Source: Trypanosoma brucei (taxonomy: Eukaryota). From it: a DNA stretch of 64,000 nucleotides. The stretch spans positions 3,584,001-3,648,000 of the forward strand of contig CM000208.1 of the NCBI GenBank assembly GCA_000002445.1, read 5' to 3'. Shown in pieces: positions 2,086 through 34,692 of the stretch. The notes beneath the pieces are model-generated. The model was not told the DNA's origin. It did not search any database and saw nothing but the letters and a program-made list of their open reading frames with translations. The stretch's first letter is position 1; each line of letters starts with the position of its first letter. Position numbers and translations under genes: made by a program.

Positions 2086-2178
2086 ATATACGTATATATA
2101 TATATATATATATGTTTGTATATATATATACACATATACACATATACATATATAAATATGTATATGCATATGCATATG
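2086..2178 (+). repeat. TA/TATACA-rich compound microsatellite
   Basis: atatacgtatatatatatatatatatatgtttgtatatatatatacacatatacacatatacatatataaatatgtatatgcatatgcatatg. Confidence 0.85.
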
Positions 2179-15130: not shown

Positions 15131-18100
15131 ATGGACGCTGACGAGGGCAGTGCGCCGGACGAGGAGCAGAGTATGGTGGTTGACCGAGTTGCACTCTCAA
15201 TAAGTGATATTTCATGTATGCGCCTTGATGGTTGTCGTGTACCGTCGAGATCCTCCAGAGCGTCGCATAGGTGGTCACATCCACAACGGCCGCACCGTCA
15301 ACCTGTTGGAGATGTTTCCTCGTCGTTGTCGCATGCCGCATCGCAGGGAAGTAGAACGTCACCACCTTCTTTTGTCTTTGCGACTCGCGTGTGCCGAAGT
15401 TTTGACTCAGTGAGTCAATCCGGCGGTGTGTTCGATTCGGTGGTGAGAAATCATGATGGGGAGAGCGTCAGAAGCAACTCAGAGGTAGTTAAGCACAACA
15501 CGTGCTTAGAGCATTCGCAGAAAACATGCCTTTCGTCCGTTTCGCTCCCACCGTTGAGTGAAGCATGCAGGGGGCACGAGGTAAGTTATGGTCTCAGCAG
15601 AAGAAGAATGTCTTTCACTTCATCGTTTTCTCCTCTACCCTGTTCGCCGGTACCGAAAGAACTCTCCCCCGGCCTACTTACATCCATACCGTGGAACCTC
15701 CCGACGCTAGGGTGGAAAGGGATGACACCAACCGCTTCTAACGTGCATGAGGGCCAAGCGACGAATTACGGTGAGGAGCAATGTGGGGAAAGAGTTGCAA
15801 ATGATACCCGCGCGTACAGAATTCTCAATATGAGCAATTCTGGAGGCGCCGTCGCGACCGATGCGAGTGTTTCTAGGGAACGGTGGTTCCACGTGCAACA
15901 TCAGAGCTTCCGCAAACGCTACATAGGGCACCTCAATTGTGTTTACGCAATATACAGGTCTCTCGTGCCAAGGAACTCTCCCCCGGCGGCTTCGCAGAAT
16001 ATTTCTCTCGGAGACACCCCTACCCTTGACCGCCGCGTCCGGTCGGTGGCTCTGTCATCTGCGTCAACTGTTACCGGTGTGGCTGCCGGTTACTACACGC
16101 TGAGTGACAGTGCCTCGACACGGTGCTCAGGCGGGCAAAACGTGCCCGTCGTACCGCGTGCTGTGAGGGGTTTCTCGCCTCGGCGCCGTGGGAGGCAGCG
16201 GGCACTTTCTTCTAGGGAGATGGACCCATTTATTCTAGGACTTATCAAGAGAAGAGTCTTATTCAGGACCACCATATTTTGTGAGTACACATATAACTGT
16301 ATTAAACATTCGGAGGAGCTACGGCTCTCGTCGTCAGAGATAGTCGAACCGTATACTGAGCAGGAATATGCGGTTTCTTCTCATTCGCAAAATGGTAGTG
16401 CTTTTACAACTTCTGTGGGTCGAGCTGAGAGCGACCGTGTGGCTACCAGCGCATCTGACGGGTCGTCTTCCATATTTTTTGATGATACACATAGAACGGC
16501 ACCACCACCAGGGAATGATGGAAAAAGACGAACTTCAGTAGTGTCCCCACCGCATGAAGAAACACCAATGGCTGTTCACCACCGGACGCTAACCCGGCTA
16601 CAAACGTTAACAACAAAGGTCCACAGTGTAGACCGTGTCATGCGCACAGTGGATAATGAGGAGGATGATCTTGTTGTTTATGTAGGTATGATTTTAATGG
16701 GTTGGCTGGAGGTCGTTGATCTTCTTGGATCTGGTACGTTCGGGCAGGTTTTTCTCTGCAAGGACTTGCGAATCGCCAACAAAACTTTTGTACACCCAAG
16801 CCAGATAGAGGGAGATGACTTTCAGTACTGGCAGTGCTCTCACACGTATATACCATTCGGTGATCCCTCAATGGTACCAACCCATACACCACTTGTGGCT
16901 GTAAAGGTTGTCAAAAGCCGCGAACTATTTGAACAGCAATCTGCTCGTGAGGCTGAGATTTTAGTGCACGTCAGTTCGCAAACGGCATCGCAAGAAGAGC
17001 AACCCGCAGAGGAGCAGCAGGCGTTTCCGGCACTGTCCTTTTCAGATCCACCCGTGCCCGACTACCGTTGCGAATATGTGGGTAAGATACTTGCGCACGG
17101 AATATGCTATGGTCATCACTGCATAGTTATGGAACGATATGGTGTTAATTTGTTTGAGTACGCGATGGCACGTGGTTTTAAAGGTCTTCCCATGTATCAG
17201 ATACAGGACATAGGCCGAAAAATCTTGCTGGGGTTAACTCTTTTGCACGAGGAATGCCACGTAGTGCACTGTGACATAAAACCCGAAAACGTTTTAATTA
17301 CACTCGATTCCTGGCTTTCTGCCAATCCAGTCCATATGGCGCTCACGGTCGGTGCTCATACACCGGGTTCTGGTGCCTCCGGAGCCATTTCACTGGATGC
17401 ATCGGCTGGGCAGTTGCATCAATCGTTGAGATGGCCGGCAAGCAATGGCTTACCTCCACTCTCCGATTCGAAATTACCGAATGGCGCTGTGCACTCCCCT
17501 ACACCTCGGCGTATGCAGATTGCTGCTTCCACCGAACGGATGTCGATGTCCTCCATTTTGAGGGAGGTTGCACCAGCTGGTTCGGCGGCAGCGAGCTCTC
17601 CTGGACTGAATAACGGTGCTGAAGATGATCCGAACCTTCCTCGCATTCCTGCATCGCCGTCTCTTTTACCGCTGAACATAAAGCTCATTGACTTTAGCAG
17701 TAGCTCTTACATTGGAAAAGGAATCCATACGTATGTACAGTCCCGCTACTATCGCGCACCAGAGGTCATTGTTGGTGCCGGCTATGGGCCAGCCATTGAT
17801 GTGTGGTCTACTGGCTGTCTTTTGGCGGAACTGCTGTTAGGCCTTCCACTTCTACCGGGAGACTCGGATCATCATCAACTCTCCCTCATTGAGGAAATGC
17901 TCGGGCCGTTGCCTCTTTCATTGTTAGCGAAGGGTGCAGCCACGCTCGAATACTACGATGTGGATGATGTTGAATTGAGAAGTGAAAGTGCAGGCGCGTC
18001 TGCATCAGAGGAAACTCCTGCGGGTCACAAAAAATCACCCTCATTTCGTCTCTTGAGTGAGGAGGAGTATCTTCGCCATCACAGGGATGCAAAACCAACA

Positions 18101-18418
18101 AAGGGAAAACGGTATTTTCAGTTCCACACACTTGCCGAACTAATCAGGAAATGTACAGCTAGCAATGAGGAAAGGTGTATTGCAACAGGGTATAGTCCAT
18201 CCGCTGCCATGGATGCCAACGTGATGGAAATGGTCTCAACGCAGCAACCGAGGAAAGAGATTGCTGACGAGATTTCGCGTCATCGATTCCGTTTTTATGA
18301 TTTACTAAAAAAAATGCTCCACGGCGATCCCGAGAGGCGCCTTACGGCCCGTGAGGCATTGGCACACAGCTTTTTTCAAGAAACACCAAAATATTTACAG
18401 GTATACTCACAACGTTAG
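15131..18418 (+). CDS. DYRK-family-like (CMGC) protein kinase with long N-terminal region and a ~130-aa kinase-domain insert
   Basis: Kinase subdomains are recognisable: LLGSGTFGQV, VAVKVVK, HCDIKPENVL, the IDFSSS variant of DFG, and a YVQSRYYRAPEVIVG activation-loop/APE segment resembling DYRK YxQSRFYRSPE. A Ser/Pro-rich insert lies between the HCD and DFG motifs. 1095 aa. Confidence 0.85.
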   Translation: MDADEGSAPDEEQSMVVDRVALSISDISCMRLDGCRVPSRSSRASHRWSHPQRPHRQPVGDVSSSLSHAASQGSRTSPPSFVFATRVCRSFDSVSQSGGVFDSVVRNHDGESVRSNSEVVKHNTCLEHSQKTCLSSVSLPPLSEACRGHEVSYGLSRRRMSFTSSFSPLPCSPVPKELSPGLLTSIPWNLPTLGWKGMTPTASNVHEGQATNYGEEQCGERVANDTRAYRILNMSNSGGAVATDASVSRERWFHVQHQSFRKRYIGHLNCVYAIYRSLVPRNSPPAASQNISLGDTPTLDRRVRSVALSSASTVTGVAAGYYTLSDSASTRCSGGQNVPVVPRAVRGFSPRRRGRQRALSSREMDPFILGLIKRRVLFRTTIFCEYTYNCIKHSEELRLSSSEIVEPYTEQEYAVSSHSQNGSAFTTSVGRAESDRVATSASDGSSSIFFDDTHRTAPPPGNDGKRRTSVVSPPHEETPMAVHHRTLTRLQTLTTKVHSVDRVMRTVDNEEDDLVVYVGMILMGWLEVVDLLGSGTFGQVFLCKDLRIANKTFVHPSQIEGDDFQYWQCSHTYIPFGDPSMVPTHTPLVAVKVVKSRELFEQQSAREAEILVHVSSQTASQEEQPAEEQQAFPALSFSDPPVPDYRCEYVGKILAHGICYGHHCIVMERYGVNLFEYAMARGFKGLPMYQIQDIGRKILLGLTLLHEECHVVHCDIKPENVLITLDSWLSANPVHMALTVGAHTPGSGASGAISLDASAGQLHQSLRWPASNGLPPLSDSKLPNGAVHSPTPRRMQIAASTERMSMSSILREVAPAGSAAASSPGLNNGAEDDPNLPRIPASPSLLPLNIKLIDFSSSSYIGKGIHTYVQSRYYRAPEVIVGAGYGPAIDVWSTGCLLAELLLGLPLLPGDSDHHQLSLIEEMLGPLPLSLLAKGAATLEYYDVDDVELRSESAGASASEETPAGHKKSPSFRLLSEEEYLRHHRDAKPTKGKRYFQFHTLAELIRKCTASNEERCIATGYSPSAAMDANVMEMVSTQQPRKEIADEISRHRFRFYDLLKKMLHGDPERRLTAREALAHSFFQETPKYLQVYSQR

Positions 18419-18604
18419 GTTCGTTGGGTAGTAGTTGTGGACGCGCGAGACATCGCTGCCTTTACCGATTACCGAAGGAAAAAAATAACGGAAAGATGGG
18501 GAAAGGAGAGAGAGAAGAGAAAAAAAAAGTTCAAATAATAAAAGATTGCAGGGGGGGGGGAGAGTTGAACAGATCATCAGCAGTTGCTTGCGCTGATGTT
18601 TGTG

Positions 18605-18640
18605 GAGGAAGGAAGGAGGAAGGAAGGAGGAAGGAAGGAA
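18605..18640 (+). repeat. (GGAAGGAA/GGAGGAA)n purine microsatellite
   Basis: ggaaggaaggaggaaggaaggaggaaggaaggaa seen directly. Confidence 0.9.
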
Positions 18641-20285
18641 CATGTGTAGCAAAGGGTACATATATATATATTTTTATATATATTGTGTGTGTGTGTGTAT
18701 TTTGAGTACCATAGCTAACAAACGGTGAAGCCCTTTTGAATGGGATTGATGCCAAGATCTAACAATGACAATACCAATAACAGTAACAGTGACAACATGT
18801 TGAGCACCCGTAATAGATGGGTTTATGAAAGAGGTGCAGGAGTGGGTGTTGTCAAATTCATTAATTATACCAATAAAGTGACGGAGTTTCAGTGGTGGGC
18901 AGGTGGTGTGGGTGCATGTGGACACGTTACGCATCACTGATGGGGGTGAAAACAGTGTTGTTGTTGTTGTTTCTCTATTTGCGTAGACGGAAATAACCAT
19001 TCGCTGCAACGCAGCGAGGAGGTGAGAGAAGCGATGTATGTGTTAAGGGGATTAAAAAAAAAAGAAGAGTAAAGGGTGTGAAGGGTGAAAATGAAGTTAT
19101 TGCCGCAGTGGCGGTGCGGAGAAATGACAGTAGTTTTGAATGGAATGTATTAAACTGCGCGACACTTTCAACTTTTCTCTGTTTGTCTGCTTTACTGAGG
19201 CTTACTGGCCCCCTTCCCTCAAACAAAAATTCCCCTTCTTACATTTCTTTTTCTATCTTTCCTTCTTATCCTCCTCCTTTCTGTTCTGTTATGTTCTGTT
19301 GTGTTGCGTTGCGTTGTGTTGTGCTCTGCTATTGTGTTTTGTGTGTGCATGTGTGCATGTGTGCATGTGTGTGTTTTTGTTTTTACGTCTCGCTTTAATT
19401 CTTTTGACTGTACCCTTCTGTTATTATTGTTGTTGTTGTTGGTATAAAAGCAGTGTTGTGCGTTGGGGGAAAAAAATGAATAACCAGGATGGACAGTCAG
19501 CAAAAGTAAACAGGGAGTGTTGTGGGGAGGGAGGGAGGGCGGGGGGAAGAAATAAAATGTTTTTTTTTTCATTTTGAAAGAAGAGTGGTTGAAACGAAGA
19601 GTTTTTGTGTTTTTTTTTTAAAAAAAAAGAGAAAGAGATGTAATGGAGCTTAACCATGTACAGACGCTCAAAGGCAGAGAAGGAGGTGCGAACAGAGAGG
19701 AATAGTGAAGTGAAGAGAAGAGAGGAGGGGAAGTGAATTCTTATGTTTTTTTTGTTTTTACGTGTTTATGTGTGTGTGGGAAATGTTTATTTTCCAGATT
19801 ATTCCCTTTTGTTTTTTCTTTTTGCTTGTGGTTGTGTTTTCCTCTACACGTTCCTCTTCTTCTCCCCCCCCCAAGTAGTCCCTTTTCCTTTTCTTTTCTT
19901 TTCTTTTGCTCTTTCGTTGGACTTTAGTTGGTGTTCCGTCCATGTCCCTGGGGAAATTTCCACCCTAAGTTTAAATCACTTATTTCTTCCTTTCCTCTCA
20001 TACGCAGCTGCGTCCTTTAGTTCCCTCTTGTTTTTTGTCTTTCCTTTTTAGTTTTGTTTTTCAGGAAAAAATATATAAAAAGAACAAATTTATTGCTCTT
20101 TTGTGGTCCTTTTAATTACCTTAAAAGGAGAAAGTGGTGTTGTAACCTTCCTTCATTTTCTACATCTTCCTCCTTCTTTTTATGATTTTTTTTTTACTTT
20201 TCCTATTGTTGCTTTGGTTGCCCCGGTGCCTGCATGCTTCCACGCTCACTTCATTCGCTCATTCGTTCTGACAGCTTCTACTTGC

Positions 20286-20381
20286 ATGATGATGATGATG
20301 ATTATTATTATTATTATGATTATGATTATTATTATGATGATTATCACCTCCCGCCACTCCTCCTCCTCCTCCTCATCCTCC
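20286..20381 (+). repeat. Compound microsatellite (ATG)n-(ATT)n-(ATGATT)n followed by (CCT)n
   Basis: atgatgatgatgattattattattatgattatgattattattatgatgattat … cctcctcctcctcctcatcctcc. It generates the poly-D/Y and poly-M/I artefact ORFs in the track. Confidence 0.9.
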
Positions 20382-21731
20382 ATTTTTTTTTTCTAAATTT
20401 CCCTCATATGTTCTTCGGTTTTGTGTGCCCAATGCGCCGCATGATAGGGGACGGACTCCTACAAAGACATTAGTGCGTATCTGAATACACGATTTCTCTC
20501 TTTCTATTCCTTTAATCCTTGTTTTCTTTTCTCTTCTTCTTTTCTTTTTCTTTTTCTTTTTATGTAGTTGTTGTTCGTAGCTTTGTTTTTTGTTTTTTTT
20601 CTTTTGTGCTCGAAGGAGAAAGCAAGCATTTACTTTCTTTCTCTTTTGTTTTTTTCCTTGCAATTGACAATTACTAATTGTTTCGATGGGATGAGAGAAG
20701 AGAAGAGAGGAGAAAAGAGATGAAGAGAGAAGTGCGGGGTGGGGTCTCGGGATGATTGGGCGAGTGAAGGTTTTTTTTTATTGTTTAACGTGTCCTGGAG
20801 TTATTGTTAAAAAAAAAAAAGAGAGAGAAGGAGGAAAAGAAAGGGATTTAAAAAAAGAAAAGCGACTGATAAGTTTTTTTTTTTTTGAAGGGGGGGGGGA
20901 AGGAGAAAAATAGGCATGGAACTCAAACGGTTAGAAGGCCATCTGGGGACATGCCCCAATTTTTACTTTTTTTTTCTTTTTAATTCCTATAGCGCATATT
21001 TGCGTACTGTGTGTGTACACGCGCAGGGCATTTGGGTTGGTCGTGCATGTATGTGTACGCATTCCATTATTTGGTTGTGGTTAGGTGCGGCTGCCGCAAA
21101 AGTGAGTATATTCATTCACCTGTGCAAAAAGTCAAGGAAGGCCGGTGGATTGTTTTCTTCTTCTTCACCTTTCTTCCTTCTTTCTTTCCTTTCTTTCTTT
21201 CTTTCTTTTCCCCCCTTTTTCTCTTATTTTCGTACCCCACACTTTACTCCCGTTTTGTGGGTATGTTTTTTTTTTCTGTTTGGATGGAGAGTGGTGACTC
21301 CTCCCTCCTGTGAAGTAAAAGTGTTGCGTTGTCGTCAGCCATACCATATTATTTTCCACCTTATCATTTTTCTGTTTCATGGTCTTCCTCGTGAACCTGT
21401 ATTTCATGTCCTTTGTTTTTTTTTTTGTTTCTCTTCTCTATATCTCTTTGAATTCTCCTTTACCAATATATTTTCTAATAACCCATACTGGTCTACTGTT
21501 TGCAGTGGTTGTTGTGGACTATTCGCGGGCAGCCACACAGTTCTTTTTTTTTTTCTTTCGTAGAAGGATTAGCATATAGCTCAAGTGTTAGCGAGCCGGG
21601 TTGTCCTTCCCCACCTGTCCGCCTCCGTTTATTTATTTATTTATTTCACCCGCGTGCGAATAGAGGGAGAAAAGTTAGGGGTAATTTAAAAAAAAAAAGG
21701 AAAGCAATACTTGTGACGGCTCTCCATAACA

Positions 21732-23300
21732 ATGGGGGGAGGCGCTTGCAAAATGGAGCGCCATGACGTGCAGCCGAGGGTTTCCAGTAGTCGGGTCAGC
21801 GATTGCTCCACGCCCAGGCAACAGGGAGTTACTTCCGATTCAAGTGAAACCGTTAAAAAAGAAGAGGAACAGCAACAACAACCGATTCTTATACCAAGAC
21901 AACCTTTGGGACCAGGAGCTACCACACCGCCACGGCCAATGGGTGTTGTTAAAATTGGTGACCCACTGGATATTAGAAGTGGTGTCGGAAGCCCACAATG
22001 TGATGTAACTCTGACAACAAACAACACTTGGAACCACTCAACCTCGGCCTTCACTACGAGGTTACCCCATTTTGTGAACACGGAGGGATTTGATGCCTCC
22101 ACAGGTGTTAGGTGGACGGACAACGATACGGCACCAAACCGTCCTCGATCCCGTCGAACATCTATACTAGTAGAAAAGGAAAGTGCGGCTTATCATAACG
22201 GTTATCCTGCTACATATGATGGTGACAGGCACCAGCGGAGTTACTCTCGTGGAGGAAGTTGGTACAAAAATGCCGAGAACAGTGTTTTCCTCCGTTCCAC
22301 TGATATGCCGTCCTTTGCTGGGAATAGCGCACGTTACCCTGGTGATGAGAATAGGAACAAGTCGTTTGCGTCGGCTGCAAATAGTTCATACTTTTTTGGT
22401 GCCAGTTGCAGCCGTCGGAGCGTTGCCCGCAGCGGGACTTGCGTCGTGAACCTGGCAGAAAGCACGAAAACTTTGAGAGGGGCGATGGCAACCTTAAGAA
22501 AGCATGTTCAGCAGGGAGCGAAACCTCTGTCATTGCGAAGTTCATATCGGGATGTTGGTGGTTCCATGGGTTGCTCTTATAATGACGACGTCCCCAGGTC
22601 GAGACTACCGAGCATTTTTACTGCTAACAACGCTATTACGCCTGCACCGGATGGGTCAATGTATGGTGAGTATAATGCATTTAATCGTGATTATGATGCT
22701 CCGGGGGTGTTGGGTGGTGGAAGGGGCGCGATGTTCCCCAACGTTCCCATCAATGGAGGTTTTAAAAAGTCTTCTGTACCCGCGCCACATGTGGGTTCCT
22801 TGTTAGAGTTAGTGGACACTTCTACCGTTTCAGTGTTTGCAGCGGATTCGCGTGCGGAAAGTACGGACGATGCGAATAAGCAACAGCTGCGACGAGTGGC
22901 AAACAATGTGGGGTGCAGTCCTGTTGTAAAGGTCGCATCACCTCCGCGGCAGGCTCAGAGAAATTGTAGGGTTGTTGTTCGGGAGGATTTGGATGGTGTG
23001 GAGTGGCACACAAAAAATGTCGAGTTCCCCGTAGTTGGTAGCGATGAAGGAAACAAAAGTCGCGAAGTTAGCACCACGTTTGCATTGCCCGGATCAATTT
23101 GTACATTTGGGGCCACTACTGACGTAAGTGAAGATAGTGGTCCACGCGGTTGGGTTGGCGTTGGGGGGGATTTTGGAGTTAGTAGTAGTGATTGGTATGC
23201 ACGGCAACGCAGTAAGTTAATGTCTGATGAGTCCGACGTAAACTCTAAGGATGGTGCAGGTGAAGTTGATTCCAGTGGTGACGCCGCGGAAGAGATGTAG
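21732..23300 (+). CDS. Hypothetical protein, Ser/Gly/Asn-rich low-complexity (522 aa)
   Basis: Only long + strand ORF in the 18.4-27.5 kb region; no recognisable domain. Coding status rests on ORF length and strand consistency. Confidence 0.5.
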   Translation: MGGGACKMERHDVQPRVSSSRVSDCSTPRQQGVTSDSSETVKKEEEQQQQPILIPRQPLGPGATTPPRPMGVVKIGDPLDIRSGVGSPQCDVTLTTNNTWNHSTSAFTTRLPHFVNTEGFDASTGVRWTDNDTAPNRPRSRRTSILVEKESAAYHNGYPATYDGDRHQRSYSRGGSWYKNAENSVFLRSTDMPSFAGNSARYPGDENRNKSFASAANSSYFFGASCSRRSVARSGTCVVNLAESTKTLRGAMATLRKHVQQGAKPLSLRSSYRDVGGSMGCSYNDDVPRSRLPSIFTANNAITPAPDGSMYGEYNAFNRDYDAPGVLGGGRGAMFPNVPINGGFKKSSVPAPHVGSLLELVDTSTVSVFAADSRAESTDDANKQQLRRVANNVGCSPVVKVASPPRQAQRNCRVVVREDLDGVEWHTKNVEFPVVGSDEGNKSREVSTTFALPGSICTFGATTDVSEDSGPRGWVGVGGDFGVSSSDWYARQRSKLMSDESDVNSKDGAGEVDSSGDAAEEM

Positions 23301-24556
23301 GCAAAAGAGTAGCAGAGGTGATTAATTTCTCCTACTTGGGTTCCATTTTATTACCATTATTAATTTAGGAACAACTAAATATTAACGAAATAAAGGAAGA
23401 AAACAAAAAAGAGAACGAAAAAAAAGAAAAAGAAAGAAAGAAGATAAATAAAGGGGACGTGGGAGAGCAGAAGAAAAAAAAAGGAAAAGCAAAAGGAAAA
23501 GAAGCTAGAAAAGTAATGGTGCCCATCACATGATGGCAAAAAGGGAAGTGTGTACGTGCCAATGTGGAGGTGAGGGAAGTGAACTGATCCTTTACTTTTG
23601 TCGCGCAGTTGTTATTATTGTAAGGGTTGACTATCATTATTTTTATTGGTGTTATTGTTACTATTATCATTTCAACGAGTAAAGTGAACGATCAGCAAGT
23701 GAATAAGCACGAGCAAGTAACCATTAATAATTATATTGCATACAGTTGTACAATTATGTGTGTAAATGTACCTGTGTGTACGCGTTTTTTTTCCCCCTTT
23801 ATGCTTGTATGTTCGAATCCGGGGATTTAAGTTGTTGTTTTTGTTGTTGTTGTTGGGGTTTTCAAATGTTGTGGGGGATTTCTTCTTCACTCCTCTTCTT
23901 CTTTTTTTTTCTACTTTTACGTTTGGAAGCTCGGCGATACAGAACGCAGAACTTTTCCTTTTTTTTTTTGGTTTAATGCTTATTATTGGTACTGCTGCTG
24001 CTGTTGTCGCTGTTGTTGTTCATTCTAGTCAACATCCTCTCTCAATCGGCCCTTTCCCGTCCTTTCCATGTTATTTTCATTATTTCCACCGCAGTCGCCA
24101 CCATCGTGTTTTCGATTCCCCATCCCTCTTTCTCTCTTTCTTTCCTTTCATTTTTTTTGTTATTATTACTGTTTTCATTGTTATTGTCTCTGTTGCTGGC
24201 CCTTATTAATCGCAATTGTTACTCTTCTTTTCACCTCCATCCCCCTCTTTTTGTGTGTTGTGTGTTTGTATGTGTTTGGCTGTTGTAATTTGTTTGTTTG
24301 TTCTTTTTTCACCTCCCTCCTTCCAACCCCGCATCTTATATTTCGGGTGTCGGGACTGCAACTTCTTGAAAATACCTTTTTTTTTTAATTTTTTACGTTT
24401 GTCGTCGTTCTTTTGCCTCCCTTTTTTTTTTCCTCACTTCGGTGATACTTCCTCCCTTCCTTCCCTTTCTTTTTCCCTTTCTTTTTTGTTTTTGTATGTG
24501 TCTTATATCCCACTTTTTTTCTTTTTTGAGCAGCAAAATAAAAAAAGAAACACATA

Positions 24557-24557
24557 A

Positions 24558-24600
<43 letters not shown>

Positions 24601-24601
24601 A
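24557..24601 (+). repeat. (CA)n-(TA)n compound microsatellite
   Basis: cacacacacacacacacatatatatatatatatatatatata. Confidence 0.9.
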
Positions 24602-26347
24602 TGATAATAATAACAACGGAAACGATGATGGTGATAATATGTATAGGTGTGGATGTATATGAGGATGTATGCGTACATATATATATATATATATATATGC
24701 ACGGGGGGTTCTGAAAAGGATATAAAAAAAAACGTAGAGGCGTCATAATTTGAGTTTACTTTTTTCTGTTTTTTGAAAGGGTTTCGTCTTATTGTTTCGT
24801 ACTTTTTAAAATATCATGGTAATATGGGTAAGGAGGAAGTTTTTTTTTTTGTTCAAAAATTAACATTATGTCCGACGGTGTGTGGTTTGTGGTGCGATTG
24901 TTGTCTGTTTCGTCCGCGGTGTGCGATTTGGGGTTTGAGGGAAGCAAAAAAAGAAAAGATTTGAAATAAAGGAGGGTGTAATTTCCCACTATGGTGACGT
25001 TATTGTTGTGGGTTTTATCAGATGATTGTTTATTATTACCATTATTAGTATTACTATTACTACTACTTTCCACTGTTTCGCTTTTCTTTTTTTTCCTTTT
25101 TCCTTTTTTTTAAAAATTCTATTCCCCTCCCTTGCATCAGTTTCGATGATTAAACACTTACGTTTTGATCACAAATTTTGTGTGAAGCTTCCTCTCTTTG
25201 ACTTTAGTTTTTTTTTGTTTTTGGCGCTCCCATTTGATTTGATCTCTCTTTTTAAGTTTCGGTTTCCCACTCTGTCACCTTCTCCCCTCCCTTTAAATCC
25301 TCACTTTAGTCTTTTGTTGTATTCGGGTATCCATGTTGCGCTACGCCCAGCTGTTTGGAATATTACTTCGGAAGATGAAAAGTTCGGTTTATTTATTTAT
25401 TTATTATTTTTTTTTACGTTCTTTCTTTCTTTCTTCGACATGTTTGTTTTTTCCTATTCTCGAAATCAAAGGCATCACCAACACCACCACCACCAGCAGA
25501 ATTAAGTGAACACATCCGCGAGTTACTGCCATGTGTTAATCCCTTTGCCTTTCTACCCTTCGATGATTTTAAAAAAAAAATTTCCCTTTCGTTTCATGTT
25601 TTTCATCTATATTTTCTTATTCATCCCTTTCTTTCTTTCTTTCTTTTTTCTTTCTTTTTTTCATCCCTTTACATATATAAATAAATAAATATATATATAT
25701 ATATATATATATTTGAGATGTCTTCTTCCCTCGTATCCTCTGTTGCCCTCATTTTACGCGTCCAGAAACTTCCATCATGAGGTGTGACTGCTTTCTTTCT
25801 CCTTTTTGGTGTTAATATGTCTTCAATTCCCTTATAACTTATTGTAATGTTAATTTACCATTCAAAAGGGTTGAAAGATAGAGGGAATGTGTTTTGTTTC
25901 TGTGATATCCTGCTTTAAATTTTTGTCTTTTAATATCTTATTAAGCTTTCTACTCTCTCTCTTTTTCTTTTTTTTCTTTTTGTCCCCCTCCTTTAAAGTT
26001 TTTTCTCGCATATTTTCTCTTGTCCCGTCATCTTTTTGTGCTGTGGTTGTTGGGTGCCGCACATTTTTATGCATACCTCGTTGATGCGGTGATGAAATGC
26101 TGACTTTTTTTTTTTAAAAAAAAGAATCTATCGCGAAGGAGGCTCGATATGTTTGTTGGTTCATCTGTGTGTAAACACATAAATATGTCTTTTTATGCAT
26201 GATTGCCATCAATTTGTTCGTTTCTTTGTTTGCTCGGTTTGTTTTCGTTACTTTTTGTTGTTCCTCATCAACCCGTGTTCCCTCCTTCCGTGAAGGTGGT
26301 TTTAATCTGTTTGTGAATCCGTTTTGTTTCTGTGTGTTTGTGTGTCT

Positions 26348-26396
26348 TTGTTGTTGTTGTTGTTGTTGTTGTTGTTTTGTTTTGTTTTGTTTTTTT
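26348..26396 (+). repeat. (TTG)n then (TTTTG)n microsatellite
   Basis: ttgttgttgttgttgttgttgttgttgttttgttttgttttg. Confidence 0.9.
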
Positions 26397-27119
26397 GTGT
26401 CATCTCACTTCATCTCCTTCCCCATTTTTTGTCTTTCCATTATGCATGTGTACTTACATTGCGTATTCTTTTTTTTTTCCCCCTCTTCCTTCTTCTCTTC
26501 AGCTCTCGTACTTTTTGTCTTATTTCCTCTTTCCTTCGCTACATTCTGTTTTGGGGTCTGCAGCTGCCAAACATATATATATATATATGTTTTATTTATT
26601 TAAATGGTGTTACATTTCCCGCTGCTTCTTTACGAGCATTCAAAACTCTTCTCTTTTTCTTCTCCCTCTCTTCTCCACTTAATCCGTCTATAAATCTGCT
26701 TCTTCATGTATTTAGGCGTTTACCGGCTTCCCTTCAGTGGTTGCACCTCCTTACCCCACCAAAAAAAAAAAATGATTTTGGGATCGGAGAGGTTTAAAAG
26801 GTTGAAGGGAGACGGTGGGAAGAGGAAAGAGGAAGACAAACAGACAAACAAACAAATGCTCAAATATATAAAGAAAAGTACAAGGGACAAAATGTTAGTA
26901 GCGGTGGTGGCACGAGGAGATAATAAAAGAGGGGAAACCCTTCCGAATCGGAGATACGAGATGGAAATTAGGAAGTGCCACACACGCCGGAGAGCATCAG
27001 CGTAACAAAACGTGATGTCACTAATGCAGTAAGCAGGAATTAACCAGCCAAGCAGCCAGGACTGAATTACCAGAGGAAGTCCCAATAACAACAAAAGGAA
27101 ATTAAAACATTTGGTCATA

Positions 27120-27340
27120 TATATACGCTTGTTTGTTGTATCTACTTCCCTCAGCTGGCGCTTCCTTTTTTTTTTTGGTGCGTGTGTGTGTTTTTGGATA
27201 GTCTCGTGAGCAGGTTTGTGAAAGTAAGTTTACTTTGAGATGCCCATTCTTGGTACAAATTATTATATTCTATTTGCTGTGACAGTTTGGACTATTACAC
27301 CTACTTGACCCGATTTTTTCCCTCTCTCTCTCTCTCACTA
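27120..27340 (+). promoter_or_regulatory. Pyrimidine-rich tract with (CT)n upstream of the 1634-aa gene
   Basis: …cttcctttttttttttggtg… and ccctctctctctctctcact within ~150-350 nt of the ATG at 27466. Confidence 0.35.
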
Positions 27341-27383
27341 CGACCCTTGTTTGTATTTAAATTCACATCCGCATTTATGCGTG

Positions 27384-27416
27384 CACACACACACAAACAC
27401 ACACACACACATACAA
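27384..27416 (+). repeat. (CA)n microsatellite
   Basis: cacacacacacaaacacacacacacacatacaaaca. Confidence 0.85.
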
Positions 27417-27465
27417 ACATTCATTTAAGCATACCTGTGCGGCTCTCGGCCAAACATAACGCCAG

Positions 27466-30400
27466 ATGACGTATAAGGAAGTCGCGCTTTCGTCTCAGTT
27501 AAATGGTGTGTTCCACTGTGCCGCAGTTGTTACCCTTCGAACAGCACCGGCAGACACGCTTCACCACCCGGTGTCGAGCAGTGGGACACACAAGCAAGTT
27601 CCTGATGGAGGTGTGAAATGTGAGGAACTCGAAGGAGATAATCGCCGTAGCCGCAGCCCTTCCATAACTGTTTTCACAGTTTTAAACCCCAAAGCGGCGT
27701 CGTCTTCTCTGCAAGTCCGCCAACTCCCCCAACAACCCCCAGAGGAAATGCGTTGCACGCTGTGGGTAGGAGCAAGTAGCGGTGATATTGAGGTGCGGTC
27801 GGCGGTACAACCTGACCGTGTACTTCGTTTTGTACCAAAAAAGTCGCGGGCCGTTGTTACTTCACTCATTCAAATTGGTTCTAGCCGCGTGGTCGCCGGC
27901 CTTTCCGATGGGTATATTCGTGTATTTGACGCCGTCACGCTGTGCGAGTATCAGCAGACGCGAGCGCACACGTCTGCTGTCAGGTGCCTGATGGCCGTGG
28001 CAACCCCAATAGTACAAGGAGTTCAACCAGAATGTGAATTTACACCTGCCCCAGTTTTCCTGACGGCGTCTTCCGATCGTACAATAGCAAAGTGGGATGC
28101 TGTATCCTTACAGTGTCTCTGTAGGCTGAAGGGACACACGTGTTCCGTTTCAGCATTAGTGTCGACACTTAACGGTGTCTTTGTTTTTAGCGGTGCTGAC
28201 GATGGGTCGCTGCACATGTGGTCGATGGTCGATAATACACAAGTGGTGGGGAGGCCCACTACCGTTGCCAAGAGTGCGGGTAAAAAAAAGCGAACTGGAA
28301 AGGACCTTTTAGGACCTTCTCCTCATCGACAAAAGTCACAATTACCGAAATGTAGCTTGGAGGAACCTCAAGTAAAACAAACGAGCCAAGCGAGCGGTCG
28401 TGGAGCTTCTCAGGCCAGGCCGGGGAAGTGTCGTACGAGTAGGTCCGCTTCCGTAGGAATAATGAAGGTGCGGAGCCTGCTGCGCTCGCCTTCTATCGGA
28501 AGCCCTCAAAGGCATCGGGTTGACGGAGGGGGAACAGGGCGCTCGCGTTCAATTGCAGCCATGCAAAGACATGGTCTCTTGCCAAAAATTAACTGGGGAA
28601 AAGATCTTGCGTTGCCTACCACTGCCGCTAGGGCACCAAATACTGCCACGAGGGATTCTGACAGTGACAGGCAATTTGATGGAAGTTCAGATGACGAAAA
28701 CCTGTTGACTGCGGAGCCTGTTATACCTGTCGATGGCCAAGGCTCAGCAGTTTTCTGTCGGAGTGGGCGAAATGTTGGTGATGGTGTGGGCGCTCCGCGA
28801 GAGGGAAGGAAAGGTCGAGGCAAGCTGAAAAAGAAATCTGCGCAGCAAGTGCAGGTGTCACGCTTCGCGGATGTACTCGCAAAGCTTCAAGGCCCTGTTT
28901 CTGATAGCGCGATGGGTTGCCGCCTGGCGGCGGTGCATTCGGAGCCTGTTGCATCTGGAATAGAGGGTGGTACCCTCCTTTGGCCATTGAAGTGTGAGCA
29001 CGCTAAGCGGATTACTCACCTGGCCATTGTTTGGGACCGGTTTTTGCTAAGTGGGTCGTCTGATGGTGAAGTCAAAGTTTTAGCTCTGCCTTCTGGCCGA
29101 TCAATTCGCACTGTCCACAGAGGTTACACTCCTGTGACAGGTATGACTGTCGATAACGCTCGTTGTTTGCTGTGGATTGCAACAGCGGATGGCTGCTTTC
29201 ACGTGCACAATATGTTGACTCCGGATTTGCAACAACTGCATGCATGGCGAGACCTCAGCACTCCACGACCCCTTTTAGTACCAATGACAACGAATCGCTT
29301 GTTATGTCAGCTTTATCTACTGGCAGCACCTGGAAGTAAGAAGAAGTTGTTTGACAGTCGTAGTGCTGGAAACAAGATCAAGCCAAAGATCAACTTGGAA
29401 AGTAGAAATATCAATTGTAAACGGAAGAAGACGGGACAAGTAGCCCCTACCGACCAAGGAGCCCAGTCTGGGTTAGTTGAACCTGAAGAAGCGGTTCAAG
29501 CGCCGCCTAACGCAACATTGGCGTGTATTCAGGTGGATGATGGGGACGATGAGGCACTGGCCGATATAGGTTCGCTTCGCAAGTTGGACGTTGCTCATAT
29601 GAAAGCGCGCTGTACAATCGCCAAAATGGAATCGAAAGAGGAAGTGTTCCGTAGGGTATTGCGCCGACCTGTAACCGACGATGGCATGGAGTTGCGTGAG
29701 TGTTTGTTAAAGGAGCAAACACGCGTTGTCAACGCCTTATATGGTACTCGCTTTCATTTTTCTCTACGGGATTCGTTTAGGCGCTGGATGGCCTGGTCAA
29801 CGCGGCGCGTTAGACGGTACCAATGTATGCGAAGGGTGCGGTTTCTGGCGGCAACTAATCAGGAGCGCCTACTCGGCTGCTATTTTAGGAAATGGAGGCG
29901 GCACCGTGTCTCACAGAGACTTGTAGAGCAAGACGTGCAGATAAGATCGTTGGAGTCTCGTTCCTTCAGTACAACGGTGGAGCGCTGTGCGAAACCTTGT
30001 GGTGTGGCTCTTGGTGGCAGGGCATGCGTCGCCCTCGCAAGCACACAACGGCGCAACCTGCTGCATCGTTACTACAGATACTGGCTTCATCACGTCGTAG
30101 GTTTACGGCAGGCGCTGTCGCGTTCTGTGGCCTTCAACCGTTTGTTCCTCTCGTTTGACTCCAAAGTGTGTGACAGTGCCTTCGTGTTCCGTCGGTTAGC
30201 AACGACCAACCAGTGCGCACAACGACAAAAGCGGGCGCTACAACTGCTGCTGCTGCGGATGGAGGCTCACTACCGTCAACTGCAGCACCGCTGTATGCGA
30301 AGGTGGTTTTCCTTTCTCCAGGATCAAAGAGAGTCGCGGCAGACATACAATCTCGTGGAAACGCTCACATCTGTGTTAGTCAATGGGGAGGCACTTAGGA

Positions 30401-32800: not shown

Positions 32801-33496
32801 ATGGTGGTCATACATAGTGGACTTGTAACTCCCGTATTGGAAATTATGTCACTAGTTAAGCCGTTACCTTTTGATGTGGATGTGTTGTTGGATGAACATC
32901 CCGATATGACAGTTTATCATCGCCCTCCATTGCGGAGCCGTGGTAGTGGAAGTAAATATATTTGCAATCATCATCCTGTTGAATTGCTTTCTTATGAAGT
33001 GTACTTGTGTGATACGGAAGATGAACCAGTTGTCGATTTTGAAGTGGATAATCAAATTGTCGTACGATATCAACTTAACCCGTATTGTGCTGCTTCAGAG
33101 TTTCCATTTCCTCGTGTGTTTGGAAATACAATCTACCGTAACCAAAGACCTTACCTCCGTCCTGCGTATGTGGAAGTTGCACATGGCTCTGGCGGTTGTT
33201 GTTTCAATGGTAGCGGATCATCATATGGCATTAATGTTTGTGTGGCTCCCACTGATATTTTTGCTGGTTTCCCTCGCTCCAATAATGGTGATGATGCTGT
33301 TATTTACTCTACGGTACCCCACATCAGGAAACTCCTACAGCGGCCCTTTTCCCCCTTTATGGAATGTGGTCCCTTAATTGCGGATGATGTTTTCTTTCAT
33401 TGGGATACCCTTGGTTTGCTTAGTTTGACTGATACGTGTGATTTGGGCATGTTCACAATTGAGGGTGTGTGTGGTGTATCCTCACATATTATGTAA
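32801..33496 (+). CDS. Tandem-array gene copy 1: Cys-rich hypothetical protein (231 aa)
   Basis: Intact ORF preserved in all three units. This copy carries the divergent mid-cassette ASEFPFPRVFGNTIYRNQRP. Confidence 0.75.
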   Translation: MVVIHSGLVTPVLEIMSLVKPLPFDVDVLLDEHPDMTVYHRPPLRSRGSGSKYICNHHPVELLSYEVYLCDTEDEPVVDFEVDNQIVVRYQLNPYCAASEFPFPRVFGNTIYRNQRPYLRPAYVEVAHGSGGCCFNGSGSSYGINVCVAPTDIFAGFPRSNNGDDAVIYSTVPHIRKLLQRPFSPFMECGPLIADDVFFHWDTLGLLSLTDTCDLGMFTIEGVCGVSSHIM

Positions 33497-33999: not shown

Positions 34000-34692
34000 A
34001 TGGTGGTCATACATAGTGGACTTGTAACTCCCGTATTGGAAATTATGTCACTAGTTAAGCCGTTACCTTTTGATGTGGATGTGTTGTTGGATGAACATCC
34101 CGATATGACAGTTTATCATCGCCCTCCATTGCAGAGCCGTGGTAGTGGAAGTAAATATATTTGCAATCATCATCCTGTTGAATTGCTTTCTTATGAAGTG
34201 TACTTGTGTGATACGGAAGATGAACCAGTTGTCGATTTTGAAGTGAGTAACCGAATTGTCGTACGATATCAACTTAACCCGTATTGTGCTGCTCAACTTT
34301 CACACCTTCGTGGGTTTGAGCCTCTCGTATATCCCTACGAGAGCCGTTACCTCCGTCCTGCGTATGTGGAAGTTGCACATGGCTCTGGCGGTTGTTGTTT
34401 CAATGGTAGCGGATCATCATATGGCATTAATGTTTGTGTGGCTCCCACTGATATTTTTGCTGGTTTCCCTCGCTCCAATAATGGTGATGATGCTGTTATT
34501 TACTCTACGGTACCCCACATCAGGAAACTCCTACAGCGGCCCTTTTCCCCCTTTATGGAATGTGGTCCCTTAATTGCGGATGATGTTTTTGTAAGGTGGG
34601 GAAGTAGCGGTTTGCTTAGTTTGACTGATACGTGTGATTTGGGCATGTTCACAATTGAGGGTGTGTGTGGTGTATCCTCACATGTTATGTAA
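34000..34692 (+). CDS. Tandem-array gene copy 2 (230 aa)
   Basis: Same ORF as copy 1, with mid-cassette AQLSHLRGFEPLVYPYESR and C-terminal variant VFVRWGSSG. Confidence 0.75.
   Translation: MVVIHSGLVTPVLEIMSLVKPLPFDVDVLLDEHPDMTVYHRPPLQSRGSGSKYICNHHPVELLSYEVYLCDTEDEPVVDFEVSNRIVVRYQLNPYCAAQLSHLRGFEPLVYPYESRYLRPAYVEVAHGSGGCCFNGSGSSYGINVCVAPTDIFAGFPRSNNGDDAVIYSTVPHIRKLLQRPFSPFMECGPLIADDVFVRWGSSGLLSLTDTCDLGMFTIEGVCGVSSHVM

What the first reader, a model, noticed from the sequence alone, without database searches (positions are those of the whole stretch)
18419..27465. ~9 kb gene-poor, strongly pyrimidine-skewed stretch containing only one low-complexity ORF
Between the kinase stop (18418) and the next solid gene (27466) the only long ORF is the Ser/Gly-rich 21732-23300. 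The remaining ~7.5 kb is T/C-rich on the + strand. It carries dozens of microsatellites, including (TG)n, (GGAA)n, TGTGCATG x3, (ATG/ATT)n, (CCT)n, (CA)n(TA)n and (TTG)n, and G10-13 homopolymers (18551, 20891). All six-frame ORFs here are repeat translations. Possible explanations are exceptionally long regulatory UTRs, an unannotated long non-coding RNA, or a decayed insertion.
Basis: seen in the sequence. Interest (0 to 1): 0.5.

Follow-up and report, generated by a model that had tools for sequence, protein, structure and literature searches.

The report
Two long trypanosome mRNA tails
The 9-kb "empty" stretch is mostly the several-kilobase untranslated tails of two neighbouring Trypanosoma brucei messenger RNAs, one of them for the quorum-sensing kinase TbDYRK; this kind of regulatory sequence is known and already annotated, so it is ordinary for this organism.

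Summary
The window is T. brucei TREU927 chromosome 10, with every gene on the + strand of one polycistronic unit. The kinase ending at 18418 is TbDYRK/YAK (Tb927.10.15020). The 522-aa ORF is Tb927.10.15040. The next gene is WDR1 (Tb927.10.15080).

The sequence features are real. The two intergenic regions, 3.3 and 4.2 kb, are the longest in the window (median 0.73 kb). They are T-rich, and 14% of their bases lie in simple repeats, against 1% in shuffles.

Two points in the description are overstated. The pyrimidine skew is patchy and alternates with purine-rich islands. The 522-aa ORF is not low-complexity and has syntenic orthologues in T. vivax and T. conorhini, plus a T. congolense homologue.

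Published long-read-curated annotation assigns 18419-~21398 to the TbDYRK 3'UTR (2,980 nt) and 23301-~26513 to the Tb927.10.15040 3'UTR (3,209 nt). An annotated lncRNA, KS17gene_3178a, lies somewhere between Tb927.10.15040 and WDR1. All three annotated genes from TbDYRK to Tb927.10.15040 rise 3- to 5-fold when DRBD18 is depleted, and Tb927.10.15040 is a published example of complex alternative polyadenylation.

I found no domain remnants, structured RNAs or conserved small ORFs. This is a known kind of feature, already annotated, and of low interest.

The parts
15131..18418 (+). CDS of TbDYRK/YAK, Tb927.10.15020, the quorum-sensing (stumpy-induction) kinase. Upstream context gene.
   Evidence: Exact match to EAN78866/XP_827978 of T. 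brucei TREU927. K592, DFS854-856 and H866 match the residues described for TbDYRK in PMC7136023.
18419..21398 (+). 3'UTR of TbDYRK mRNA, about 2,980 nt. Purine-rich start (18474-18640), then alternating U-rich polypyrimidine blocks and A/G-rich islands with many microsatellites. The end coordinate is accurate to about 8 nt.
   Evidence: Curated 3'UTR Tb927_10_v5.1:3673917-3676896 in Supplementary Data 1 of PMC11405848, annotated from nanopore direct-RNA and poly(A) reads. The offset of about 3,655,498 was checked on four genes.
21399..21731 (+). Processing region plus 5'UTR of Tb927.10.15040. Polypyrimidine tracts at 21409-21439 and 21541-21559. Candidate spliced-leader acceptor AGs at 21504-21505 and 21562-21563. 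These sites are predicted, not mapped.
   Evidence: Read from the sequence. The spacing of the poly(A) site, about 100-150 nt upstream of a polypyrimidine tract, fits the rule summarised in PMC6597758.
21732..23300 (+). CDS of Tb927.10.15040, a 522-aa conserved hypothetical protein found only in Trypanosoma. It is a real gene, not low-complexity.
   Evidence: EAN78867. Orthologues or homologues in T. congolense (E 5e-53), T. vivax, T. conorhini and T. theileri. Syntenic in T. vivax and T. conorhini. The gene ID follows from the start of its curated 3'UTR.
23301..26513 (+). 3'UTR of Tb927.10.15040 mRNA, about 3,209 nt, with several alternative poly(A) sites. Purine-rich start (23384-23504), then long U-rich blocks, (AC)n(AT)n and (TTG)n. 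The end coordinate is accurate to about 8 nt.
   Evidence: Curated 3'UTR 3678803-3682011. PMC11260167 names Tb927.10.15040 as its example of 'complicated polyadenylation patterns' that change on DRBD18 depletion.
26199..26603 (+). GenBank CDS EAN78868 (134 aa, 'T. brucei spp.-specific'). Almost certainly spurious: it is a translation of (TTG)n and pyrimidine tracts lying inside or at the end of the Tb927.10.15040 3'UTR.
   Evidence: Exact look-up. Poly-Cys/Phe sequence that is 40% low-complexity. No called gene in the T. equiperdum contig. The lncRNA neighbour table gives Tb927.10.15040 and Tb927.10.15080 as adjacent protein-coding genes.
26514..27465 (+). Gap between the Tb927.10.15040 3'UTR end and the WDR1 start codon. 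Holds a polypyrimidine tract (26646-26680) with the first AG at 26714, a purine-rich island (26804-26937), and a second tract (27314-27339) with an AG at 27428. This is my inferred position for lncRNA KS17gene_3178a and the short WDR1 5'UTR.
   Evidence: KS17gene_3178a has Tb927.10.15040 as its 5' neighbour and Tb927.10.15080 as its 3' neighbour.
27466..32370 (+). CDS of WDR1 (Tb927.10.15080), a WD40 protein. Downstream context gene.
   Evidence: EAN78869. Pfam WD40 hits. Named 'WD40 Repeat 1' with ID Tb927.10.15080. The ID occurs in the CRL4-WDR1 paper PMC5241021.

Best explanation
The stretch is ordinary sequence between genes inside an RNA polymerase II polycistronic transcription unit of T. 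brucei chromosome 10. It consists of two unusually long 3'UTRs separated by one real gene.

Layout: TbDYRK CDS; a ~3.0-kb 3'UTR; a splice-acceptor region and 5'UTR; the Tb927.10.15040 CDS; a ~3.2-kb 3'UTR; about 0.95 kb that I infer holds the annotated lncRNA KS17gene_3178a and the WDR1 splice-acceptor and 5'UTR; then the WDR1 CDS.

Mechanism. Steps 1-3 are established for the organism and partly shown for these genes. Step 4 is inferred.
(1) The whole region is transcribed as part of one precursor.
(2) A polypyrimidine tract upstream of each CDS directs spliced-leader trans-splicing. The coupled machinery polyadenylates the upstream mRNA roughly 100 nt before that tract.
(3) The UTRs contain about 50 further polypyrimidine tracts that are potential cryptic processing signals. 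RNA-binding proteins such as DRBD18 and DRBD3 normally keep these silent, so long UTR isoforms predominate. When masking is lost, proximal poly(A) sites and lncRNA by-products appear and mRNA levels change.
(4) The long tails are dense in U-rich pyrimidine tracts, A-rich purine tracts and (AU)n. They keep these mRNAs at low abundance and give many binding sites for stage-specific control of stability and translation. For TbDYRK this is the likely route of the feedback on its own mRNA proposed by Cayla et al.

The T-rich strand bias arises because all these signals act on the sense strand. The microsatellites are slippage products in weakly constrained low-complexity sequence.
For: Locus identity.

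Curated, long-read-based 3'UTR coordinates of 2,980 and 3,209 nt cover 83% of the non-coding bases.

All ORFs of at least 150 aa that look like genes are on the + strand.

Both annotated UTR ends lie just upstream of strong polypyrimidine tracts followed by AG, as the trans-splicing/polyadenylation coupling rule predicts.

3'UTRs over 2 kb that are dense in both polypurine and polypyrimidine tracts are a described class enriched for protein kinases.

In procyclic cells depleted of DRBD18, Tb927.10.15020, Tb927.10.15033 and Tb927.10.15040 rise by logFC 1.58, 2.27 and 2.32, with FDR at most 1e-23. An earlier report found about 4-fold for YAK.

Tb927.10.15040 is a named example of altered multi-site polyadenylation.

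Cayla et al. propose 3'UTR-mediated feedback on TbDYRK mRNA.

In T. vivax and T. conorhini the same gene order is kept, and the two corresponding intergenic regions (2,069/2,634 and 1,581/1,711 nt) are again the longest locally, against 0.5-1.0 kb for their neighbours.

Against T. equiperdum, the UTRs show 6-9 substitutions and about 5 indel events per kb, the indels mostly at microsatellites. The coding sequences show 0-2 substitutions per kb.
Against: I saw no read-level data. The UTR ends come from one curated table and map to the window only to within about 8 nt.

About 950 nt (26514-27465) is not assigned by that table.

Current annotation lists a 'hypothetical protein' Tb927.10.15033 between TbDYRK and Tb927.10.15040. 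I could not place it. Its read level (logCPM 5.5) is not obviously that of a passive piece of the TbDYRK UTR.

The two reporter-assay fragments from this region gave no significant positive effect in bloodstream forms (FDR 0.10 and 0.63).

UTR sequence is not conserved between species beyond low complexity.

A regulatory role for these particular UTRs is inferred from class behaviour and knock-down data. The knock-down effects could be indirect.
Confidence: 0.88

Rival explanations
1. The stretch is mainly an independent long non-coding RNA locus. One or more spliced-leader-capped, polyadenylated lncRNAs with their own function, for example in differentiation like grumpy, would account for it, rather than mRNA tails.
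For: At least one lncRNA, KS17gene_3178a, is annotated between Tb927.10.15040 and WDR1. It rises by logFC 1.29 (FDR 4e-59) on DRBD3 depletion. T. brucei has about 1,490 annotated, mostly intergenic lncRNAs with normal processing signals. The 26.7-27.2 kb segment has the signals expected of a separately processed RNA.
Against: Curated mRNA 3'UTRs cover 83% of the non-coding sequence. The DRBD3 study itself reports that many annotated lncRNAs are segments of longer mRNA UTRs or by-products of cryptic splice-site use. No function is reported for KS17gene_3178a. Its neighbours barely change in the same experiment. There is no sequence or structure conservation.
Confidence: 0.1
2. The region hides short protein-coding genes that ORF length filters miss, such as Tb927.10.15033 or EAN78868.
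For: GenBank annotates the 134-aa EAN78868 at 26199-26603. Current annotation has a 'hypothetical protein' Tb927.10.15033 between TbDYRK and Tb927.10.15040, with substantial read counts.
Against: All ORFs of at least 50 aa in the two intergenic regions are F/L/S/C- or K/E-rich translations of repeats. The four checked are 32-71% low-complexity. Nine of the ten largest are absent from a collection of 15 billion proteins. tblastx against the syntenic regions of T. vivax and T. conorhini gives nothing better than E = 0.003, on repeats, while the Tb927.10.15040 CDS control gives 8e-12. There are no Pfam hits above threshold in six frames. No genes are called here in the T. equiperdum contigs. EAN78868 is not counted as a neighbouring protein-coding gene.
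Confidence: 0.05
3. The extra length is a decayed mobile-element or other insertion, such as a RIME/ingi relic, since overwritten by repeats.
For: The T. brucei intergenic regions are 1.2-2.5 kb longer than those of T. vivax and T. conorhini, so sequence was gained in the T. brucei lineage or lost in the others. A-rich runs are frequent.
Against: No reverse-transcriptase, endonuclease or any other domain remnant appears in six frames. There is no similarity to any other part of the 64-kb window. The syntenic regions are already the longest locally in two other species. The excess length is explained by about three-fold higher microsatellite and polypyrimidine content.
Confidence: 0.03
4. The gene-poor stretch marks an internal, head-to-tail RNA polymerase II transcription termination and start region between two same-strand units.
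For: Such internal sites exist in T. brucei (from my own knowledge of the field, not from a tool result). The region has G10 runs and GT-type microsatellites.
Against: G+T content on the + strand (0.57-0.60) is within the range of the other intergenic regions of the window (0.45-0.66). There is no tRNA or other RNA gene. Curated mRNA tails run across most of the stretch. The three genes from TbDYRK to Tb927.10.15040 behave coherently on DRBD18 depletion.
Confidence: 0.04

Closest known systems
Several-kb regulatory 3'UTRs of T. brucei regulators: RBP10 (>7 kb), ZC3H20/21/22 (>4 kb) and RDK2; the class of >2-kb UTRs rich in polypurine and polypyrimidine tracts (PMC6597758, PMC11405848)
   Same: Lies downstream of a protein-kinase CDS inside a polycistronic unit. 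Each UTR is about 3 kb long. Dense alternating U-rich pyrimidine and A-rich purine tracts plus (AU)n. The mRNA level changes on depletion of an RNA-binding protein.
   Different: Shorter than the best-studied examples. No dissection of these two UTRs exists. The RBP10 motif UAUUUUUU is not enriched, with 0 and 1 sense-strand copies. The reporter-assay fragments were not significant hits. Tb927.10.15040 itself is not a known regulator.
DRBD18-controlled alternative polyadenylation targets (PMC11260167) and DRBD3-masked cryptic splice sites (PMC12592628)
   Same: Tb927.10.15040 is explicitly shown as a multi-site poly(A) example. TbDYRK, Tb927.10.15033 and Tb927.10.15040 all rise in DRBD18-depleted procyclics. 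The adjacent lncRNA rises on DRBD3 depletion. Many internal polypyrimidine tracts are available as cryptic signals.
   Different: Which sites are used, and whether DRBD18 or DRBD3 binds these RNAs directly, was not available to me. For TbDYRK only the change in abundance is documented, not a poly(A) shift.
Processed intergenic lncRNAs of T. brucei: grumpy (KS17gene_3137a) and TblncRNA-23
   Same: KS17gene_3178a comes from the same annotation set. It lies between two protein-coding genes of a polycistronic unit, next to a quorum-sensing gene neighbourhood.
   Different: No embedded snoRNA or other Rfam family was detected. No function is reported. It occupies at most a small part of the 9 kb.

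Membership tests
Trypanosome mRNA 3'UTR within a polycistronic unit | Starts at the stop codon of a same-strand CDS and ends at a mapped poly(A) site | tested here: met
   Curated coordinates from long-read and poly(A) data: 3673917-3676896 and 3678803-3682011, equal to window 18419-~21398 and 23301-~26513. I did not see the reads themselves.
Trypanosome mRNA 3'UTR within a polycistronic unit | Poly(A) site lies roughly 100 nt upstream of a polypyrimidine tract plus AG used for trans-splicing of the next RNA | tested here: met
   The end at ~21398 is followed by tracts at 21409-21439 and 21541-21559, with AGs at 21504 and 21562. The end at ~26513 is followed by a tract at 26646-26680, with an AG at 26714. 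The rule is quoted.
Long (>2 kb) 3'UTR class rich in polypurine and polypyrimidine tracts (Trenaman et al. 2024) | Length over 2 kb | tested here: met
   2,980 and 3,209 nt.
Long (>2 kb) 3'UTR class rich in polypurine and polypyrimidine tracts (Trenaman et al. 2024) | More than 20 A-rich polypurine and more than 20 U-rich polypyrimidine motif matches per kb (FIMO, the authors' motifs) | tested here: inconclusive
   The authors' motif matrices were not available. As a proxy, pyrimidine runs of at least 12 nt cover 12.5% and 13.0% of bases, and purine runs of at least 12 nt cover 10.2% and 3.2%, against 4.4% and 4.9% in other intergenic regions. The TbDYRK UTR is clearly rich in both. The Tb927.10.15040 UTR is rich mainly in pyrimidine tracts.
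Long (>2 kb) 3'UTR class rich in polypurine and polypyrimidine tracts (Trenaman et al. 2024) | Higher translation in bloodstream forms than in procyclic forms | not tested
   No per-gene translation-efficiency data were accessible.
DRBD18-regulated transcripts | mRNA abundance changes on DRBD18 RNAi | tested here: met
   Table S5 of PMC12592628 gives logFC 1.58 (Tb927.10.15020), 2.27 (Tb927.10.15033) and 2.32 (Tb927.10.15040). PMC4477658 reports about 4-fold for YAK.
DRBD18-regulated transcripts | Shift in poly(A) site usage on DRBD18 RNAi | tested here: met
   Stated for Tb927.10.15040 in PMC11260167, Fig. 3A text. Not documented for TbDYRK.
T. brucei lncRNA (Ksplice/KS17 annotation) | Annotated spliced-leader and poly(A)-bounded transcript over 200 nt with low coding potential, mapping inside the interval | tested here: met
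   KS17gene_3178a has Tb927.10.15040 as its 5' neighbour and Tb927.10.15080 as its 3' neighbour. Definition. Its coordinates and length were not obtainable.
Retroposon relic (RIME/ingi/DIRE) | Remnants of reverse-transcriptase or endonuclease coding sequence | tested here: not met
   Six-frame Pfam scans of both intergenic regions gave only two sub-threshold low-complexity hits, DUF6377 at 21.8 bits and DUF2207_C at 16.3 bits.
Retroposon relic (RIME/ingi/DIRE) | Nucleotide similarity to the element consensus, or multiple genomic copies | not testable with these tools
   No trypanosome repeat library or genome was searchable. Within the 64-kb window there is no second copy.
RBP10 target 3'UTR | Multiple UA(U)6 motifs on the sense strand | tested here: not met
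   TATTTTTT occurs 0 times on the + strand in the TbDYRK UTR and once (25405) in the Tb927.10.15040 UTR. The window total of 9 compares with 5.3 expected.
Structured small RNA genes (tRNA, snoRNA, other Rfam families) | Match at or above the family gathering score | tested here: not met
   There are no tRNAs. The Rfam E-value scan gave only sub-threshold matches on (CA)n, (TA)n and (ATG)n repeats. The best was 38.6 bits against a threshold of 90.

The most novel reading that the evidence does not exclude
The two over-long intergenic regions flanking the Tb927.10.15040 orthologue are kept long in T. brucei, T. vivax and T. conorhini even though their sequence is not conserved. This could mean that TbDYRK and Tb927.10.15040 form a conserved post-transcriptional module. 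In that module, poly(A)-site choice within the tails, controlled by DRBD18 and DRBD3, would set the dose of the quorum-sensing kinase and provide the mRNA feedback seen by Cayla et al. By-products such as KS17gene_3178a or Tb927.10.15033 would either report on that switch or take part in it.
Probability: 0.2. Interest if true: 0.45.

Novelty: already known. Interest (0 to 1): 0.12.

Why it matters
As a discovery it matters little. The stretch is a textbook example of how trypanosomes, which lack gene-specific promoters, put regulatory capacity into very long, repeat-rich 3'UTRs. The UTRs, the lncRNA and their dependence on DRBD18 and DRBD3 are already in the literature.

Its practical value is as a caution for genome scans of kinetoplastids. 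Multi-kb, T-rich, microsatellite-laden 'deserts' on the coding strand are expected downstream of kinases and RNA-binding proteins. ORFs inside them, such as EAN78868, are usually artefacts.

The one specific point of biological interest is that one tail belongs to TbDYRK, a central quorum-sensing kinase. Feedback through its 3'UTR has been proposed but never mapped.

Tried and rejected
Rfam E-value scan of 17.5-28.5 kb: only miRNA- or snoRNA-like chance hits on microsatellites.

ARAGORN: no tRNA.

RBP10 motif count: not enriched.

Six-frame Pfam scans of both intergenic regions: nothing above threshold. A first attempt using DNA references failed on stop codons.

blastn (word size 7) and tblastx of the T. 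brucei intergenic regions against the syntenic ones of T. vivax and T. conorhini: only non-collinear low-complexity hits.

blastn of the region against the rest of the window: no dispersed repeat.

G+T richness as a sign of a GT-rich promoter: not distinctive.

Word-indexed protein searches with the 522-aa protein, with TbDYRK and with the orthologue alignment returned only the T. brucei sequences. The exhaustive HMMER search was needed to find the other homologues.

The look-up of encoding contigs had no record for the TREU927 copy of Tb927.10.15040 or for the T. congolense homologue.

Supplement look-ups without useful data:
- Guegan 2022, no files held.
- DRBD18 2024, none held.
- ZC3H28, none held.
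- The nanopore lncRNA paper, no hits by gene ID or by coordinates.

As a result I could not obtain the coordinates of KS17gene_3178a or KS17gene_3177a, or the position of Tb927.10.15033.

The UniProt accession search found nothing.

Full report
LOCUS IDENTITY

The three large proteins around the finding match T. brucei brucei TREU927 entries exactly: EAN78866 (protein kinase), EAN78867 (522 aa, 'hypothetical protein, conserved') and EAN78869 (WD40). All are on a 4.05-Mb contig, which is chromosome 10.

The kinase has K592, a DFS motif with S856, and H866. These are the residues described for TbDYRK/YAK, Tb927.10.15020, a component of the quorum-sensing pathway that drives slender-to-stumpy differentiation.

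Upstream lie IFT52, IFT80 and lipoyl synthase. All gene-like ORFs in the 64 kb are on the + strand, so the finding lies inside one polycistronic transcription unit.

A supplementary table of Trenaman et al. 2024 gives chromosomal coordinates. From these, window position is approximately chromosome position minus 3,655,498. I checked this on four genes, and the offset drifts by up to 8 nt. By this mapping the 522-aa ORF is Tb927.10.15040. The WD40 gene is Tb927.10.15080, named 'WD40 Repeat 1' or WDR1.

OBSERVATION

The two non-coding segments, 18419-21731 (3,313 nt) and 23301-27465 (4,165 nt), are the two longest intergenic regions of the window, whose median is 731 nt.

| Measure | Focal intergenic regions | Other intergenic regions | Coding sequence |
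|---|---|---|---|
| GC | 38% | 43% | 51% |
| T | 37-40% (A 24%) | 32% | 24% |
| Bases in perfect simple repeats | 14% | 4.5% | 0.4% |

Dinucleotide-preserving shuffles give about 1% of bases in simple repeats.

The pyrimidine bias is real but moderate, at 54% and 59%. It is patchy: blocks of 64-72% pyrimidine alternate with purine-rich islands, including one directly after each stop codon.

The 522-aa ORF is not low-complexity. Its entropy and SEG content match those of neighbouring genes. It has homologues in T. congolense (37% identity, E 5e-53), T. vivax, T. conorhini and T. theileri. Shared features are an N-terminal MG, an S-T-R-T-L-K-G-A-K-A-T-L-R-K-H block and a C-terminal GW-x-G-I-G...DWYARLR block.

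WHAT THE NON-CODING SEQUENCE IS

Trenaman et al. re-annotated 4,703 T. brucei 3'UTRs by hand from nanopore direct-RNA reads and reads filtered for the spliced leader or poly(A). Their table gives two relevant UTRs:
- Tb927.10.15020: 3673917-3676896, which is 2,980 nt and maps to window 18419-~21398.
- Tb927.10.15040: 3678803-3682011, which is 3,209 nt and maps to window ~23301-~26513.

Together these cover 83% of the non-coding bases of the finding.

Both ends sit just upstream of strong polypyrimidine tracts followed by AG. This is what the kinetoplastid coupling of trans-splicing and polyadenylation predicts, with the poly(A) site about 100 nt upstream of the active tract.

The 334 nt before the Tb927.10.15040 start codon can hold its splice acceptor and a 5'UTR of at most ~230 nt.

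The last ~950 nt (26514-27465) has two successive polypyrimidine-AG signals separated by a purine-rich island. This is the arrangement that, according to Clayton's review, yields an extra processed RNA without an ORF. A lncRNA from the Guegan et al. annotation, KS17gene_3178a, is listed with Tb927.10.15040 as its 5' neighbour and Tb927.10.15080 as its 3' neighbour. I infer that it lies in this ~950 nt, but I could not obtain its coordinates.

HIDDEN GENES, RNAs AND INSERTIONS

The ORFs of at least 50 aa in the two segments are F/L/S/C-rich (sense strand) or K/E/R-rich (antisense strand) translations of repeats.

Of the ten largest, only one is in the 15-billion-protein collection: EAN78868 (26199-26603, 134 aa). 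It is a poly-Cys/Phe translation of (TTG)n labelled 'T. brucei spp.-specific'. It overlaps the end of the Tb927.10.15040 3'UTR, is not called in T. equiperdum, and is not treated as a neighbouring protein-coding gene in the 2025 lncRNA table.

Other negative results:
- Six-frame Pfam scans found no domain remnant.
- tblastx against the syntenic regions of T. vivax and T. conorhini found nothing beyond repeats, while the CDS control scored 8e-12.
- Rfam and ARAGORN found no RNA gene.
- No part of the region recurs elsewhere in the window.

One loose end remains. Current annotation contains a 'hypothetical protein' Tb927.10.15033, which by its number lies between TbDYRK and Tb927.10.15040. I could not place it.

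COMPARISON WITH OTHER SPECIES

Gene order is conserved in T. conorhini and T. vivax: lipoyl synthase, DYRK-type kinase, Tb927.10.15040 orthologue, WDR1 orthologue. Orthology is supported by full-length alignments.

| Species | Kinase to Tb927.10.15040 orthologue | Tb927.10.15040 orthologue to WDR1 | Neighbouring intergenic regions |
|---|---|---|---|
| T. brucei | 3,313 nt | 4,165 nt | window median 731 nt |
| T. vivax | 2,069 nt | 2,634 nt | 499-782 nt |
| T. conorhini | 1,581 nt | 1,711 nt | 503 and 958 nt |

In each species these two are the longest local intergenic regions. Their sequences are not alignable between species. Length, not sequence, is what persists. The T. brucei versions are the longest and the richest in repeats.

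Against T. equiperdum (about 98% identity), the UTRs carry 5.8-8.7 substitutions and about 5 indel events per kb, and most indels are changes in microsatellite length. The Tb927.10.15040 and WDR1 coding sequences carry 0-2 substitutions per kb.

HOW IT MOST LIKELY WORKS

Established for the organism:
- Transcription is polycistronic.
- Polypyrimidine tracts specify both trans-splicing and upstream polyadenylation.
- The median 3'UTR is about 400 nt, but protein kinases and RNA-binding proteins often have 3'UTRs of several kb. These are thought to keep mRNA levels low and to offer many regulatory binding sites.
- 3'UTRs over 2 kb that are dense in both A-rich polypurine and U-rich polypyrimidine tracts form a recognised class enriched for protein kinases.
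- ZC3H28 prefers long mRNAs with poly(AU) and polypurine low-complexity 3'UTRs.

Shown for these genes:
- In DRBD18-depleted procyclic forms, Tb927.10.15020, Tb927.10.15033 and Tb927.10.15040 rise 3.0-, 4.8- and 5.0-fold (an earlier report is).
- Tb927.10.15040 is the published example of 'complicated polyadenylation patterns' that change on DRBD18 depletion.
- KS17gene_3178a rises on DRBD3 depletion. The authors attribute this class of change to unmasked cryptic splice sites.
- Cayla et al. observed feedback on total TbDYRK mRNA that an ectopic copy with an aldolase 3'UTR escaped, and suggested that the native 3'UTR mediates it.

Inferred:
- The roughly 50 internal polypyrimidine tracts of at least 20 nt are the substrate for this control.
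- The strand bias reflects sense-strand function of the signals.
- The microsatellites are slippage products in weakly constrained sequence.

Not supportive:
- The two reporter-assay fragments overlapping these UTRs were not significant positive hits (FDR 0.10 and 0.63).
- RBP10 motifs are not enriched.

VERDICT

For T. brucei, though, this is the expected appearance of the 3'UTRs of a kinase gene and its neighbour. The UTRs, the lncRNA and their regulators are already published.

Novelty: already known. Interest: low, about 0.12.

The residual open points are small. They are the position and reality of Tb927.10.15033, the exact extent of KS17gene_3178a, and whether the conserved over-length of these two intergenic regions reflects a conserved regulatory module around the quorum-sensing kinase.

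Noticed in passing
window 21732-23300 (protein): Tb927.10.15040 and all its orthologues start with MG (T. brucei MGGGAC, T. vivax MGSSAS), a pattern compatible with N-myristoylation or palmitoylation. They share a conserved C-terminal GWxGIG...DWYARLR block. A table in PMC12592628 lists its tagged localisation as 'cytoplasm[reticulated]'. No Pfam family matches, and its function is unknown.
   Followed up: partly
window 26199-26603: GenBank CDS EAN78868 ('hypothetical protein, conserved' / 'T. brucei spp.-specific') is a poly-Cys/Phe translation of a (TTG)n microsatellite at the end of a 3'UTR. It is very probably an annotation artefact still present in NCBI and UniProt.
   Followed up: yes
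between window 18419 and 21731 (exact position unknown): A gene ID Tb927.10.15033 ('hypothetical protein') exists in current annotation between TbDYRK and Tb927.10.15040. It rises 4.8-fold on DRBD18 depletion, with logCPM 5.5. I could not find which ORF it is or why it was added.
   Followed up: partly
window 32801-33496, 34000-34692, 35208-35900: Three tandem copies, about 95-97% identical at DNA level, of a 230-231-aa ORF with no Pfam match, separated by ~500-nt T-rich spacers. T. vivax has a single 233-aa gene at the same position after WDR1, followed by a ribosomal protein gene with S13_N/S15 domains, as in the window (36311-36766).
   Followed up: no
window 19524-19547: GGGGAGGGAGGGAGGGCGGGGGG on the sense strand of the TbDYRK 3'UTR is a canonical four-run G-quadruplex motif. 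G10 runs lie at 18551 and 20890.
   Followed up: no
L001 ~2217-2233 (window 22561-22595) and L001 near window 25969: The T. equiperdum OVI assembly has runs of N inside the Tb927.10.15040 orthologue and inside its 3'UTR. This is probably why the gene is not called there. The two T. equiperdum contigs (L004, L001) break inside the TbDYRK 3'UTR near window 20.3 kb, in the (ATG/ATT)n-(CCT)n repeat area.
   Followed up: partly
window 38065-40772 and 1-3442: Two other long stretches (2.7 and 3.4 kb) lack an ORF of at least 150 aa that looks like a gene. The first has high GC (0.48) and almost no simple repeats, unlike the focal regions, so it may hold shorter real genes rather than a long UTR.
   Followed up: no
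window 24493-24703 and 27350-27424: Rfam mir-297, mir-466 and mir-3149 models score 27-39 bits on (CA)n and (TA)n microsatellites. These are false-positive-prone families on dinucleotide repeats, not RNA genes.
   Followed up: yes
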